The translations under genes and the position numbers were made by a program. A DNA stretch of 64,000 bases from the human T2T-CHM13v2.0 reference genome, Homo sapiens, in contig CP068257.2 of NCBI GenBank assembly GCA_009914755.4, positions 30,432,001 to 30,496,000 on the forward strand. Reading direction: 5' to 3'. Positions within the stretch are counted from its first letter, which is position 1. Every line of letters starts with the position of its first letter. Below are positions 14,973 to 63,695 of this stretch, one piece after another. A model generated the notes under the pieces. The model saw nothing but the letters and a program-made list of their open reading frames with translations, ran no database searches and was not told where the DNA came from.

Positions 14973-16024
14973 CACTGCCCGCAGCGCCTCATTATTCCCA
15001 GATAGATAGCATCAGGGGGAGGGAGCCGGCTGCTCTATTTTTCTTTTAATTAAATAATTAATTTGGACTCTGCCTTGTTCTAGAAATTATTAAAACCAGG
15101 CAGCCAAAAATTTCCAGTAACATCTTTTCTTCATTACCAAAGCAATTCACTTTCAATGTAGAAAATTTTAAAAATACAGATAATTTTTTTAAAAAAACCA
15201 ACCCACTCATCATCTCCTCAAGTCTCCTGCACAGCGAAATACTGGATGCTTCTGCTGTTTATTCTTCTGGGCTTCTTTCCCGATCCTCAATATACTTTAA
15301 GATATTTACTTAAAAAACATGGGATCTTACCTGGTTATTGTTTTCCAACTTTATGCTCTACCTAATTGAGTGGTAAATATCTTACAGTATCAATCAACAT
15401 AACCATACATGCAAATTTGCAATTACAATTTTTAGTAGCGCCTAGTATTTTGTTCTAGGACCGTGTCATACATTAATCATTTGTTTTTCATGTATTGGAT
15501 TTTTCTAACTTTTCACTACTGAAAGTATTAACATTAGACTGAACATCCTTAAACAGAGTGTCAGCAGACTTGAAGATAACAGTGAAAATATCATGGTTTC
15601 TTAGTCACTTCATTCCCTTGTCTCATTCAGATGAAAAAAGAAAAACAATAGTAAACCATAAAGAAAGGTCAACAAAATTCTGGTTTGTCTGTGATGCCTA
15701 CTCCAATCTGTTTTTGAAATGTTGAAAATATAATTCTTTTAAAAAATTGATTCTTTCGTTTCGCAGATATCTAAACATCCTTATCTCTTTGTGCTTTTAA
15801 CAAACAAAAGGACATTGCTGGGTCAAAGGACATGCATATTAGTATGACTTCGGAGACATAGTGCCAACCTGTTTTCCAGAAATGACCTATCAGTTTATAT
15901 TTCTTGGGGGTGAACTGTCTTCTCCACACTCTCTTTGTCAACCCGTTAGGCAAAAAGTGTCTCCTCTTTGTTTCGTGTGCATTCTATTCATTCATGAGTT
16001 TGAATACTTTTTTTCATCCATTAA

Positions 16025-21668: not shown

Positions 21669-22098
<430 letters not shown>

Positions 22099-22952
22099 TG
22101 AAGTCTTTCTAGAAGGATTCTCCATCTTATTTTTGTCCTAGAGATACTCAATACTCAGTAATCTCATCCTGATCCAATATGGCCTACCCTGAGGAATGGA
22201 GGAAGAGCTTGGTTCTGGATTGGACTCTTCTGGCAAGGCAGGCATGACAGCAGACCTTGCTATTCACGAGTTTACGAATAATCTTGAGGAACCTTGAGCT
22301 CACCTGTGGTCACTCCTTCTTCCCACCCCAAGGAGAAGAGAAGCTTGTCTTCTTGGATGCAGTTGGGAGCCTACAGCCTACTCCCACACCCAGGCCTCTG
22401 TGGCTGTCCAAAGTCCACGTGTCCCCAAGACCATCCTCACTTGGGGAGGACGTCGGCATATTATGGGTTCAGTCATTCTAGGTATAACTATCTTCTGTAT
22501 GACCAGGTCAAGCTATATATAGCTTAGAAATTTTCAGGTGCTCGATTAGTAATCACAACCAATGTGATTCAAGCATCTATCTGCTTGGATTTTTTAAAAA
22601 AGTGTTTTCAGTCTTCCCAGTCCTGGATATTTTAAGCAGAAGGACCCATCCAAGCATCATAGGATAAGCACCCAAATCAGAACAAGCTCCTGGTATCTCA
22701 GGCCTAGGTGAAGCTCCTTTCTCATTACTGCCCATCTTCCCTGACCAGACTGAGCCTTTATCCCCTGTAATGATCCTGAGATTGCCCCTTGGATACAAGG
22801 ACAGTTTCATTTTGGTCTGATATTCTGCCACAGATTTGATCCTCTGATCTGCCCTGGGAATAGATCTCCCTGATCAAGAAGGACTCCTGTGCAGTAAATA
22901 ATTCACCTTGTCCAAAAGAGGTTTGACTTTTGCCCTCAGCACATGAGAGGTA

Positions 22953-23217
22953 ACTTCTAAGCCCTTGAAATGTTTCTGAGGCAGGAGAATGTTGTGAACC
23001 CAGGAGACGGAGCTTGCAGTGAGCTGAGATCACGCCACTGCACTTCAGCCTATACGGTAGAGTGAGACTCCGTCTCAAAAAAAAAAAAAAAAAAAGAGAA
23101 TGCCTTTGTTTATATGGGGGGCTTGGGATAGCCCAAAGGGTCTATGTTATCAATGTGATTTATGGTGGGGACTTTGAACCACACAGTATCAACCTGACCT
23201 CTGGAAGTGCTGGTGAC
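22953..23217 (+). repeat. Copy 1 of a ~265 bp low-copy direct duplication; contains a truncated Alu 3' end at 22978..23096
   Basis: 'acttctaagcccttgaaatgtttctgaggcaggagaatgttgtgaacccaggagacggagcttgcagtgagctgagatcacgccactgcacttcagcctatacggtagagtgagactccgtctc(A)n gagaatgcctttgtttatatggggggcttgggatagcccaaagggtctatgttatcaatgtgatttatggtggggactttgaaccacacagtatcaacctgacctctggaagtgctggtgac'. Confidence 0.9.
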
Positions 23218-24253
23218 CAAGGTCAGCCCAGCAGATGGTCAATCATGTCTACGTGAACAAGTCCCAATAAAAACTGTGCACACCAAGACTCTGGTGAGTT
23301 TTTCCTGGTTAATAATACTCTGTGCATGATGTCAAATGTTGTGTCTGAGAGGTGCTCTCTGCACGACTCATGTTTAATGACTTCTAAAATCTGACCTATA
23401 TGCCTCTTCCCTTGGAGGATTTTAATCTGTATCCTTTCATGGTAATAAAGCATAACCATGAATATAATGACTTTTCTGAGTTCTGTGCATCTTGCTAGCA
23501 AATTATTGAATCTGAGATGGTCCTGGGGATCTTCAATTTGTTGTTGGTGTCAGAAGTGAGGAGGATCTTGTAGACACCCGAACTTTGCAACCTTCAAAGT
23601 AGAATCCCAGCATCAACTCACCTGGCCAGAACTCCCATGAAAAGCGATTAGCAATCTTCATCCTAGAACCTGGGGACATTCTGTTTTTCCTTCTTTTCTG
23701 GTCAATCGGTCTCTTCTCAGCCACTGCACTCTTAGAACAGTCTGACCTCCTAGTTTCCCTTTGGAGCCTTTCCTACCTCATCCCCAAACCAGGTTAAACC
23801 CTCCCACCTGCTGTTTATCCTCTTCTAGAGATATCTCCCTTTTCTGCATCATTACCTTCTCTTATCAGGCACATACCCCAGGTTCATACCTGCCCAAATG
23901 AGGTCCTCCTTCTGTCAGTCAATTCCTGAATTATCAAAGCTCACCACATCTTCTGAGCTGGCATTTCCATATGATATCAGTCTGCTGAAAATAAATTCCA
24001 ATATACAGACACAAGGAGATCCAGTTAAAAGAGCCCAGGAAATTCTCTATTTATTACAGAATGACAAGTAGAGGTCTTGACGTAAACGCAGAAAAGCAGG
24101 AGGCCCCGGAATCTCACAGAAAGAAATAACATGAGAACTGGGAAGGACAGTTCTGAAGCTTTCATAAGACAAATCCATCAAACACAAGAGAGAAAATTAG
24201 ATTTCCTATTCTGCTTTTTCAATAGTGATCCAATTAATACTTGAATACTTGAA

Positions 24254-24516
24254 TACTTCTAAGCCCTTGAAATGTTTCTGAGGCAGGAGAATGGTGTGAA
24301 CCCAGGAGGCGGAGCTTGCAGTGAGCTGAGATCACGCCACTGCACTTCAGCCTATACAGTAGAGCGAGACTCCGTCTCAAAAAAAAAAAAAAAAAAGAAT
24401 GCCTTTGTTTACATGGGGGGCTTGGGATAGCCCAAAGGGTCTATGTTATCAATGTGATTTATGGTGGGGACTTTGAACCACACAGTATCAACCTGACCTC
24501 TGGAAGTGCTGGTGAC
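24254..24516 (+). repeat. Copy 2 of the ~265 bp direct duplication; truncated Alu 3' end at 24279..24397
   Basis: Near-identical to 22953..23217. Differences visible by eye: gttgtg/ggtgtg, gacgg/ggcgg, tacggtagagtgag/tacagtagagcgag, tttatatgg/tttacatgg, poly-A length. The flanks outside the unit are unrelated. Confidence 0.9.
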
Positions 24517-26968
24517 TGGGGCAATAAAAACACAGTAATTTGGATCAATTGGTAAAGAGCTCAATATGAGTTAATGAAAGTTAGAATTGCAGAATATAGT
24601 GGAAGAAACACAATAAAATTACTTCCAAATATTTACATAGATTTTTAAAAAACAAGCAACCAAGTAGAAGTCTTATGGGTCGATTATAGTAAGTAGACAA
24701 TTTTCATGTGCCAGTTCACATTATTTTAATCCAATCAGTGCTACTCAAGTGCTTTAATAATGTGAAAAATAGTTTCCATTCTTAATCAGATCAAATATTT
24801 TCCTTCCAAGGCATCTGAGATTGTGTTTAGTAAATTTGTATAAATAGTAATTCTCATCTCTCATGAAGGCAAATTTGAGGGAGGAGGTGGGATGGGAGGA
24901 AGGCCTAAGTTAATAAGGAATTACTTGATTAGAATGAGTTGGCATATTACAGATCTATAAAATCGAGAGGGCTTGTTTTTCATGGATAAAAGTAGATTCA
25001 TACTAACAAATGTGTGGTCCAAGAAAGTACTATTAATACTTCATTTCGTTTATTTATGTATTCATTCACACATTGATTTGTTCAGCAAACATTTCTTTAA
25101 GACTTATTTCAGGCCCCATATTTGGTTTTGGTGATCAAAGATATGCAAAACACTATTTCTGCCCTCAAGGTATTTGCAGTCCACTAGGACTCTTCAAATG
25201 ACCACAATTCCATGTGGCAAATAGCTCCTGGTGGGTTCTCAGAGAGCACGGAGTGAAGGACACTCCCCTTCTTCCTGAGTGTAGAGTTCAATATTTCCCA
25301 GCCTCCTCTGAGGTTACATGTGGCCACATGACTCACTTCTCCCAGTGGCATGTAGACAGAAGTCATGTCTACCTCTGCTGGGTCTAGGCTTAGGAGATGG
25401 GCATACCTCCTGCCTCTTTTCCCCTTGTAACTGGGGCAGAATATAGTCCAACATTGACCATAGATGAGGACAATGCCATTGGGTCTAGAGGATGATGCAG
25501 CAAAGACTTGACAACCTGGAAGAAATTGAGTCCCTGCCCACAAGCCTGGCACTCTTGAATGGGCAGATGGAACAGAACTGCCCACGAACCTGGCCCACTC
25601 ACTTTAGAACTGTTACTTGAGGGGGAGGAGAAACAGCTATAATTTTAAAACCACTTTATGATGGGGTCTTTTTATTCATTTTTATTATGAAAATGTTCAC
25701 ACATATAGAAAAGCTAAAAAAAATTGTACAATAGACATTTATATATCCACAGCTTAAATTATACCATTAAAATTTTACTGCACTTTCCTTTTTAAAATTA
25801 TAGACCTACCTATTTTTCCACCCATCTATTCACTCATCAGTCCTTCTTAATTTTTGAACAAAATTCAAAGTATATTGCAGACCTCTCTACATTTCAACCT
25901 AAATACTTTGGCATGCAAATTATTAACTAGACTTTTTCTTCTGATGAAAAAACTTACATACAATGAAATGCATAAATCTTAAGTGTGTAGTTGTTAAGCT
26001 TTGACAAATATTACACCCACATAACCCAAACCACTATCAAGATCAAGATCATTCAATTTCCCCAGAATTTCTATTAGGGTATTTCTGTTACAGCAGCTTA
26101 GCTTTACCTTAAATCATATACAGAGTCATAATATTAATAATAGTTAGAAGAGCTGAACATCTTTTATGTGTCAGGGATTATATAATGCATATTTTATTTT
26201 TCACAATAAAGTCATGGTGTAGGTATGATTAGCTCTGTCATATTGATAAGAAAAATTAGGTTTAAGAAATTGCCCATGTTCACTCAGCTAGTAAGTGGCA
26301 GAGATGAGCTCTGCATCTAGATCCCACTGATTATAACACCTGGCATCTTTCCACTACTCTCTTTGACTGACTCTGCCTGAGGGCTTCAGGGGGAGCTTAG
26401 CTGCACAAAGGAAGAATATTTAAGCTACATCTTGAGCCTCAACCCTGGAAGATTGAGCTGAATCCACTTATCAGAAGGACAAAGCAGGGAAGGGCTTTCC
26501 ATGCAGAAGAAACATCACATCCAAAGCAAAGAAGGATGAGAGTGTAGCATTTGAACAATTGCTGATGTCTCCATCTGCTCAGAGCTTAGAGTAATAATGT
26601 AGGGGAAGCAGAAGATGAGAGTTAAAAACTGACCAAGATACTAATGCTTTGCTAAGTGGATTGGATTTGATCCTACAGGCAGTGAAGAGCCATCAAAAGG
26701 ATTTAAGCAGGGAAGTGACGTAATTAGATTTGCAATTTACAATGCAACTTAGAATGCTGTTGATGCAGAAAAATGGTATCAGAAAGAGACAGGGGCTAAG
26801 GAAACCAATGATGAAACAGGTGAAGTAGTCCTTCGGCTTGAGGATCCAAATAGAGCAGTTACTATGGAGACCATGAGCACAAGCTGGAAGACAGGTCAGC
26901 TGGTGATTCCCACTTTCAGGACAAGCTTCCATTTTTTCTGTATGTGCTCTAGTTAAGAAATCTTTAAA

Positions 26969-62714: not shown

Positions 62715-63142
<428 letters not shown>

Positions 63143-63203: not shown

Positions 63204-63695
<492 letters not shown>

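What the first reader, a model, noticed from the sequence alone, without database searches (positions are those of the whole stretch)
22953..24516. Local ~265 bp direct duplication (~97% identity) spaced 1.3 kb apart, each copy carrying the same truncated Alu tail
Segments 22953..23217 and 24254..24516 share the same unique 5' flank (~25 bp), the same 3'-truncated Alu fragment with poly-A, and the same ~120 bp unique 3' flank. This is therefore a duplication of a host segment and not two independent Alu insertions. Several of the handful of differences are CpG transitions (acgg/acag, gcgag/gtgag), consistent with an evolutionarily recent event. Direct repeats of this size and identity are substrates for non-allelic homologous recombination, so a ~1.3 kb deletion/duplication polymorphism is plausible. 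Alternatively the pair could be terminal repeats of an unrecognised composite element. The intervening 1.04 kb has an 'aataaa'-containing LTR-like feel but I cannot classify it.
Basis: seen in the sequence. Interest (0 to 1): 0.55.

Follow-up and report, generated by a model that had tools for sequence, protein, structure and literature searches.

The report
Small local copy-paste duplication, primate DNA
A 265-bp piece of non-coding primate DNA (the tail of an Alu plus parts of an old LTR-like repeat) was copied once and pasted 1 kb downstream several million years ago, which is a real but ordinary kind of small genome rearrangement.

Summary
A1 (22953-23217) and A2 (24255-24516) are direct copies that differ by 5 substitutions and a 3-bp length change at the poly-A end. 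The unique parts occur nowhere else in the 64-kb window. Both copies carry the same Alu 3' end (consensus positions 181-281, AluY-like), so the Alu is 5'-truncated, not 3'-truncated as written. A related contig from a public assembly (L001) shows that window ~22937-23565 is one copy of an old ~570-630-bp LTR-like interspersed repeat interrupted by the Alu tail. A1 therefore sits in its native context and is the source. A2's flanks match nothing around A1, so A2 is a secondary DNA-level copy inserted 1037 bp downstream. It lies at an (AATACTTG)n microrepeat whose phase the first four bases of A2 continue. There is no target-site duplication, no TG...CA ends, no PBS/PPT and no terminal poly-A. 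That rules out retrotransposition and a composite LTR element. The repeat length is below the period, so it is not a simple tandem duplication. Divergence of 1.9% suggests roughly 8-19 Myr (wide interval). The best reading is a templated, template-switch or break-repair "dispersed duplication". This is a common, known class and probably neutral. The NAHR polymorphism idea could not be tested here.

The parts
22937..23565 (+). One copy of an old LTR-like interspersed repeat (~570-630 bp), interrupted near its 5' end by the Alu tail. It supplies the unique 5' and 3' flanks of A1 and the first 348 bp of the spacer.
   Evidence: Reverse-complemented L001 is homologous to 22937-22969, 23098-23114 and 23140-23565 (0/200 shuffles reach the scores). 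There is no homology outside 22937-23565.
22953..23217 (+). A1, the source copy of the duplicated segment (265 bp).
   Evidence: Alignment. Family homology continues past both of its edges in L001, so it lies in its native context.
22976..23095 (+). 5'-truncated Alu 3' end (consensus positions 181-281, AluY-like, 87%) plus A19, inside A1.
   Evidence: L001 has ~84 bp of other repeat sequence at this position and no Alu.
23218..24254 (+). Spacer B (1037 bp). 23218-23565 is the rest of the old LTR-like repeat. 23566-24254 is unclassified sequence, single-copy within the window.
24236..24258 (+). Perfect (AATACTTG)x2.9 microrepeat straddling the B|A2 junction. Its last 4 bases (ACTT) are the first 4 bases of A2.
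   Evidence: TRF and the junction display. The chance of a 4-base in-phase continuation is 1/256.
24255..24516 (+). A2, the derived copy (262 bp), inserted in unrelated sequence.
   Evidence: Its flanks (B-end, Y) show no homology to A1's flanks or to L001.
24278..24396 (+). The same 5'-truncated Alu 3' end (89% to AluY-like consensus) plus A18, inside A2.
24517..25100 (+). Y, the AT-rich downstream flank of A2. It is unrelated to B-start and single-copy in the window.

Best explanation
A2 is a secondary, DNA-level copy of A1, a small non-tandem ('dispersed') intrachromosomal duplication. The inferred history has four steps. (1) An old LTR-like repeat inserted at ~22937-23565. (2) An AluY-like element landed about 35 bp inside its 5' end. 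Only its last ~100 bp plus poly-A remain, and ~84 bp of the old repeat are missing there. (3) Much later, during replication or double-strand-break repair at an (AATACTTG)n microrepeat 1.3 kb downstream, a DNA end switched template to 22953, where ACTT matches the microrepeat phase. It copied 262-265 bp and returned to the original site, leaving a templated insertion (FoSTeS/MMBIR-, SDSA- or Pol-theta-type). (4) The two copies then drifted apart by 5 substitutions and a poly-A length change. Shown here: the duplication, its boundaries, A1 as source, the unrelated context of A2, and the absence of retro-element hallmarks. Inferred: the template-switch enzymology, the single-event history, and neutrality (no function).
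For: The two copies share unique flanks on both sides of the Alu tail. L001 shows that the old repeat family is colinear across both edges of A1, with 22937-22969 spanning the left edge and 23098-23565 spanning the right edge. A2's flanks are not homologous to A1's flanks or to L001, with z between -1.1 and 1.3, while a positive control gives z = 11. No TSD of 4 bp or more exists around A2, around B, or around the whole unit. The ends of A are ACTTCT...GGTGAC, there is no TGG-type PBS after A1, the 20 bp before A2 are only 50% purine, and neither strand has a terminal poly-A. The B|A2 junction lies in a perfect 8-bp microrepeat that A2's first 4 bases continue in phase. The literature describes dispersed duplications as a regular class of human insertion variants, 63% of them in simple repeats (PMC7640490). 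Germline templated insertions with junctional microhomology, attributed to an MMBIR-like process, are also described (PMC8421209).
Against: No pre-insertion allele or outgroup sequence could be obtained. The junction microhomology is therefore only inferred. Under the simplest pre-insertion model (B-end joined directly to Y), strict microhomology is 0 bp at both junctions. The right junction shows no evident homology. Most germline templated insertions described in the literature are shorter than 262 bp. The right-edge continuity evidence in L001 lies inside a 265-bp tract identical to the window, which may come from the window locus itself. The independent evidence for that edge is the colinear ~70% homology on both sides of the tract. 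The repeat class (LTR, ERVL-like) rests on memory and was not tested against a library.
Confidence: 0.62

Rival explanations
1. The cause was capture of a free DNA fragment rather than template switching. A ~265-bp double-stranded fragment, excised or small extrachromosomal DNA from 22953-23217 or from its sister chromatid, was ligated by end joining into a break at 24254/24255.
For: The insert has clean, abrupt ends, no TSD, and no strict junctional homology under the simplest pre-insertion model. The end product is the same as in the best explanation.
Against: The in-phase ACTT continuation of the 8-bp microrepeat (chance 1/256) fits annealing-primed copying better than blunt ligation. The donor is intact, so the fragment would have to come from a copy. 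Sequence alone cannot separate the two models.
Confidence: 0.17
2. There were two events. A 1302-bp tandem duplication of A+B gave A-B-A-B, and a later deletion removed the second B and joined A2 to Y.
For: Tandem duplication is the commonest duplication type. The direct orientation and the 1302-bp period are compatible with it.
Against: It needs two events, with the deletion starting exactly where A ends. No trace of a second B is found downstream (Y vs B-start z = 0.8). The B|A2 junction lies in a microrepeat that is not present upstream of A1.
Confidence: 0.08
3. The event was ectopic gene conversion. A second old copy of the same LTR-like repeat (for instance the 3' LTR of a degraded provirus) lay at 24.2-24.9 kb, and a 262-bp tract including the Alu tail was copied into it from the upstream copy.
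For: L001 shows just such a colinear high-identity patch inside a ~70%-identical paralogue, so patch transfer within this family may occur.
Against: The sequences flanking A2 show no homology to the repeat family on either side, while a known ~70% segment scores z = 11 in the same test. Word-7 BLAST finds nothing either.
Confidence: 0.04
4. A1 and A2 are the terminal direct repeats of a composite mobile element (LTR-like unit A-B-A), or A is a long target-site duplication of an inserted element B.
Against: There are no TG...CA ends, no flanking TSD, no PBS or PPT, and no terminal poly-A on B on either strand. B-start is the colinear continuation of the old repeat that begins upstream of and within A1, so B was not inserted next to A1. 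The unit has no other copies in the window or in the scanned collections.
Confidence: 0.03
5. The duplication is an assembly artefact (a false duplication) in the source assembly.
For: None specific. L001 reads across A1->B but not across the A2 junctions.
Against: The copies differ at 5 substitutions plus an indel (1.9%), far above haplotype or sequencing-error differences. The copy is non-tandem and has precise, unique junctions.
Confidence: 0.03

Closest known systems
Dispersed (non-tandem) duplication insertions in human genomes, as classified in long-read callsets (PMC7640490)
   Same: The inserted sequence is a low-copy duplicate of sequence elsewhere on the same chromosome. It is not a mobile element and not tandem, and the insertion site is in a simple repeat, as for 63% of that class.
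   Different: This one is fixed in the given sequence and old (1.9% diverged), not observed as a polymorphism. The donor is only 1.3 kb away.
Microhomology-mediated templated insertions (MMBIR/FoSTeS, Pol-theta TMEJ); germline MMB-TIs (PMC8421209)
   Same: It is a copy of a nearby template in direct orientation, inserted at a non-homologous site. A short match (ACTT) links the donor start to the target, and an adjacent small tandem repeat suggests slippage.
   Different: At 262 bp it is longer than most described germline templated insertions. The right junction has no visible microhomology, and the pre-insertion allele is not available.
Segmental duplication (>=1 kb, >=90% identity)
   Same: It is an intrachromosomal, high-identity, DNA-level duplication, and a potential NAHR substrate.
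   Different: It is only 265 bp, below the defining size. The longest identical run is 104 bp.
Independent Alu (SINE) retrotransposition
   Same: Each copy contains an Alu 3' end with poly-A.
   Different: The copies share 23 bp upstream and 120 bp downstream of the Alu piece and the same truncation point. There was one Alu insertion, copied later with its flanks.
LTR retrotransposon / provirus with paired LTRs
   Same: It has direct repeats flanking an internal segment, and an old LTR-like repeat is involved.
   Different: The direct repeats are not the LTRs. A1 is an internal piece of one old LTR-like repeat plus an Alu tail. There are no TG...CA ends and no TSD, PBS or PPT.

Membership tests
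Dispersed duplication / templated insertion | The inserted segment matches a template elsewhere in the same genome at high identity. | tested here: met
   262/265 bp, 98.1% identity, template 1.3 kb upstream.
Dispersed duplication / templated insertion | The copy is not adjacent to its template and sits in unrelated sequence. | tested here: met
   1037-bp spacer. A2's flanks show no homology to A1's flanks.
Dispersed duplication / templated insertion | It is not a mobile element: low copy number, no TSD, no terminal poly-A. | tested here: met
   Only two copies in the window and no hit in the scanned collections. No TSD or terminal poly-A. Genome-wide copy number was not testable.
Dispersed duplication / templated insertion | Microhomology at the template-switch junctions. 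| tested here: inconclusive
   ACTT continues the (AATACTTG)n phase at the left junction. Strict microhomology needs the pre-insertion allele, and the right junction shows none.
Dispersed duplication / templated insertion | An empty (pre-insertion) site exists in an outgroup or another haplotype. | not testable with these tools
   No primate genomes are available. Exact-ORF look-ups, two homology searches and five collection scans found no orthologous locus.
Simple tandem duplication | The duplicated unit length equals the period, so the copies abut. | tested here: not met
   The repeat is 265 bp but the period is 1302 bp, and there is no second copy of B.
Segmental duplication | Length >= 1 kb at >= 90% identity. 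| tested here: not met
   Identity is 98%, but the length is only 265 bp.
Two independent Alu insertions | Each insertion has its own flanks, TSD and truncation point. | tested here: not met
   The truncation point (consensus position 181) is identical, and the unique flanks are shared on both sides.
LTR element with terminal repeats (composite element) | TG...CA termini and a 4-6 bp TSD flanking the unit. | tested here: not met
   The ends of A are ACTTCT...GGTGAC, and no TSD flanks A1-B-A2.
LTR element with terminal repeats (composite element) | A PBS just inside the 5' repeat and a polypurine tract just before the 3' repeat. | tested here: not met
   After A1 the sequence is CAAGGTCAGCCC..., with no TGG start. 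The 20 bp before A2 are 50% purine.
Ectopic gene conversion between paralogous repeats | The converted tract is flanked on both sides by colinear, lower-identity homology. | tested here: not met
   Y vs B-start z = 0.8 and B-end vs X z = 0.4, against a control of z = 11.3.
Old repeat hosting A1: ERVL-type LTR (lead only) | Match to a curated LTR consensus (Dfam/Repbase). | not testable with these tools
   No repeat library was available. Support is limited to one paralogue (L001) that delimits a ~570-630-bp unit, and to motifs recalled from memory (AATAAA region, TGGTGTCAGAAGTGAG resembling a tRNA-Leu PBS at 14-15/18).

The most novel reading that the evidence does not exclude
The same stretch of this old LTR-like repeat may have taken part in two separate patch transfers of about 265 bp. 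One is the local A1->A2 copy. The other is the exact 265-bp tract (23151-23415) found inside a ~70%-identical paralogue on contig L001. If both are real germline events, this could mark a recurrent size-constrained copy-paste process, for example re-insertion or conversion from small extrachromosomal DNA, acting between sequences too diverged for ordinary homologous recombination.
Probability: 0.05. Interest if true: 0.45.

Novelty: already known. Interest (0 to 1): 0.1.

Why it matters
It matters little beyond annotation. It is one more example of a small, old, probably neutral dispersed duplication in repeat-rich non-coding primate DNA. In practice, the two copies can confuse short-read mapping and repeat annotation, because one Alu insertion gets counted twice. 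They could in principle mediate a rare 1.3-kb deletion by unequal recombination. With an outgroup sequence, the locus would give a clean, datable example of a templated insertion with both junctions preserved.

Tried and rejected
(1) I looked up two window ORFs (106 aa across X|A1, 92 aa in B) by exact sequence in public assemblies. Neither is on record.
(2) I ran five exact-pattern scans with 26-30-mers from A, B-end and Y-start: two of metagenome contigs, two of genome contigs and one of viral contigs. All gave 0 hits.
(3) A homology search with a concatenation of all non-Alu ORF peptides from 22.5-25.6 kb found 4661 word-sharing candidates, none significant. Cross-species dating was therefore impossible.
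(4) Rfam at gathering thresholds found no family in the window.
(5) I aligned the inverted LTR-like motif upstream (22409-22442) against the repeat at 23554-23587. The score was 20 and the shuffle maximum 19, so this is not significant and I dropped it.
(6) The sandbox has no repeat library, so 23566-24254 and Y stay unclassified.
(7) I rejected LTR-LTR conversion, a tandem-duplication remnant, a composite LTR element, A as a long TSD of B, retroposition of A2, and an assembly artefact. The reasons are given under the rival explanations.

Full report
OBSERVATION. The repeat finder and a gapped alignment give A1 = 22953-23217 (265 bp) and A2 = 24255-24516 (262 bp), in direct orientation with a start-to-start spacing of 1302 bp. 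The copies differ at five substitutions: 22992 T/G, 23007 A/G, 23056 G/A, 23063 T/C and 23113 T/C. They also differ by 3 bp in length at the poly-A/GA boundary. Identity is 98.1% over aligned bases, or 97.0% if gap columns are counted. Identity ends abruptly on both sides. A word-7 BLAST of each component against the whole window finds the unique flanks of A only at these two places. It finds no second copy of the spacer B (23218-24254), the upstream flank X or the downstream flank Y.

ANATOMY OF THE UNIT. Each copy consists of 23 bp of unique sequence, 101 bp matching Alu consensus positions 181-281, A18-19, and 120 bp of unique sequence. It scores best against an AluY-like consensus (87-89%). 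The roughly 22 other Alus that the same query found in the window serve as an internal control and show this is catarrhine primate DNA. Rfam finds nothing at gathering thresholds.

WHICH COPY IS THE ORIGINAL. No repeat library was available, so I used ORFs as handles to pull related DNA from public assemblies. The 92-aa ORF at 23223-23501 (minus strand) hit one protein. That protein is encoded on a 1031-bp ENA metagenome-assembly contig, L001. Reverse-complemented, L001 is homologous to window 22937-22969, 23098-23114 and 23140-23565 in colinear order. No shuffle reaches the observed scores, and there is no homology beyond those limits on either side. So ~22937-23565 is one copy of an old interspersed repeat of about 570-630 bp. 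Its size, AATAAA region and end motifs are LTR-like. An ERVL-type LTR is my guess from memory and is untested. L001 has no Alu. Where the window has the Alu tail, L001 has ~84 bp of other repeat sequence. The family homology runs about 16 bp beyond A1's left edge and about 350 bp beyond its right edge. A1 therefore lies in its native context and B-start is its natural continuation. A2's neighbours are different. Y against B-start, B-end against X, and both against L001 score no better than shuffled sequence (z from -1.1 to 1.3). In the same test, a known ~70%-identical segment gives z = 11.3. A1 is the source and A2 is a copy placed in unrelated sequence.

A caveat concerns L001. An exact 265-bp run (23151-23415) is embedded in ~70%-identical flanks. 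This is either a real ectopic conversion patch or a low-coverage (0.87x) assembly chimera containing a read from the window locus itself. In the second case the read-through of 23217/23218 is not independent evidence. The colinear flanking homology on both sides of the tract (inside A on the left, inside B on the right, at the same spacing) still places A's 3' flank and B-start in one repeat unit.

MECHANISM. Retro-element explanations fail direct tests. There is no target-site duplication of 4 bp or more around A2, around B, or around the whole A1-B-A2 unit. The ends of A are ACTTCT...GGTGAC, not TG...CA. There is no TGG-type primer-binding site after A1 and no polypurine tract before A2. Neither A2 nor B has a terminal poly-A on either strand. 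A simple tandem duplication is excluded because the repeated length (265 bp) is far below the period (1302 bp), and no trace of a second B exists. Conversion between two old LTR copies is excluded by the lack of flanking homology. What remains is a DNA-level copy-paste.

TRF shows a perfect (AATACTTG)x2.9 microrepeat at 24236-24258 straddling the B|A2 junction. Its last four bases, ACTT, are the first four bases of A, whereas A1 is preceded by GGTA. A 4-base in-phase continuation has a chance of 1/256. I therefore favour a template switch or break-repair synthesis primed at the microrepeat, which copied 22953-23217 and then returned. This corresponds to FoSTeS/MMBIR-, SDSA- or Pol-theta-type templated insertion. 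That step is inferred. Without the empty site, strict microhomology cannot be scored, and under the simplest pre-insertion model (B-end joined to Y) it is zero at both junctions. Capture of a free ~265-bp fragment by end joining gives the same product and cannot be excluded.

AGE. Four of the five differences were polarised with the Alu consensus and one (23113/24412) with L001. This gives three derived changes in A1 and two in A2. The K2P distance is 0.019. At 0.5-1.2e-9 substitutions per site per year, the point estimates are about 8-19 Myr. The Poisson limits span 2.6 to 45 Myr. The event post-dates the AluY-like insertion. 'Recent' is therefore relative.

NAHR. The longest perfectly identical run between the copies is 104 bp, and the next are 48 and 39 bp. 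Unequal recombination producing a 1.3-kb deletion is possible in principle but should be rare. No population data could be consulted.

COMPARISON WITH WHAT IS KNOWN. Long-read callsets classify dispersed duplications (non-tandem, low-copy, not mobile elements) as a regular type of human insertion variant, and 63% of them lie in simple repeats (PMC7640490). Germline templated insertions with junctional microhomology, some shared between individuals and regarded as evolutionary events, are attributed to an MMBIR-like process (PMC8421209). This locus fits that known class. It fails the defining tests for segmental duplication (size), tandem duplication, paired-LTR element, independent Alu insertions and ectopic conversion (see the membership table).

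WHAT COULD NOT BE DONE. Orthologous or empty-site sequences were sought in three ways. Exact ORF look-ups were tried first. Five collection scans followed. Last was a concatenated-ORF homology search. All were negative. B-rest (23566-24254) and Y remain unclassified.

VERDICT. This is a real, correctly spotted, but ordinary small dispersed duplication in non-coding, repeat-rich primate DNA. The core interpretation is supported, the composite-element alternative is rejected, and the polymorphism suggestion is untested. Interest is low, and the kind of event is already known.

Noticed in passing
L001 351-615 (reverse complement) = window 23151-23415: An exact 265-bp run is shared between the window and a ~70%-identical paralogous copy of the old LTR-like repeat, on an ENA metagenome contig (ERZ1023377 NODE_22156, coverage 0.87). 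It is either an ectopic conversion patch or a low-coverage assembly chimera. It has the same length as A1, probably by coincidence.
   Followed up: partly
window 22970-23097 vs L001 (reverse complement) 230-313: Where the window has the Alu tail, the paralogue has ~84 bp of repeat sequence, including an internal ~24-bp tandem duplication. So either the Alu insertion was accompanied or followed by loss of old-repeat sequence, or a later deletion removed the Alu's 5' 180 bp together with it. No Alu TSD is visible.
   Followed up: partly
window 62866-63142 (-) and 63204-63476 (+): A closely spaced inverted Alu pair (AluY-like at 93.5% and AluS-like), about 61 bp apart. This is a potential hairpin or dsRNA-forming arrangement.
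   Followed up: no
window 45965-46122: A second 5'-truncated Alu (consensus positions 148-282) with A23, lying 205 bp downstream of a full-length Alu at 45469-45759.
   Followed up: no
window 21723-21824: A polypyrimidine (TCTC/TCTT)n tract of ~100 bp abuts the poly-A side of an antisense AluS-like element at 21833-22097.
   Followed up: no
window 14930-14969 and 11286-14992: A (CA)20 microsatellite lies inside a GC-richer stretch with unusually long ORFs (up to 270 aa, 14163-14975, minus strand). No 1-kb bin in the window meets CpG-island criteria (GC > 0.55 and observed/expected > 0.6).
   Followed up: no
window 22409-22442 (-) vs 23554-23587 (+): A 34-nt inverted match (79%) carries an LTR-end-like motif (AAGTGAGGA..GACAC..ACTTTG), hinting at another old LTR fragment in opposite orientation upstream. 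The extended alignment is not significant (score 20 vs shuffle maximum 19).
   Followed up: yes
window 47035-47382 (+): A 115-aa ORF resembles the C-terminal end of L1 ORF2 (...AKTWKQPRCPSVSEWISKLWYIWTMGYYLALKR...). This was recognised from memory only.
   Followed up: no
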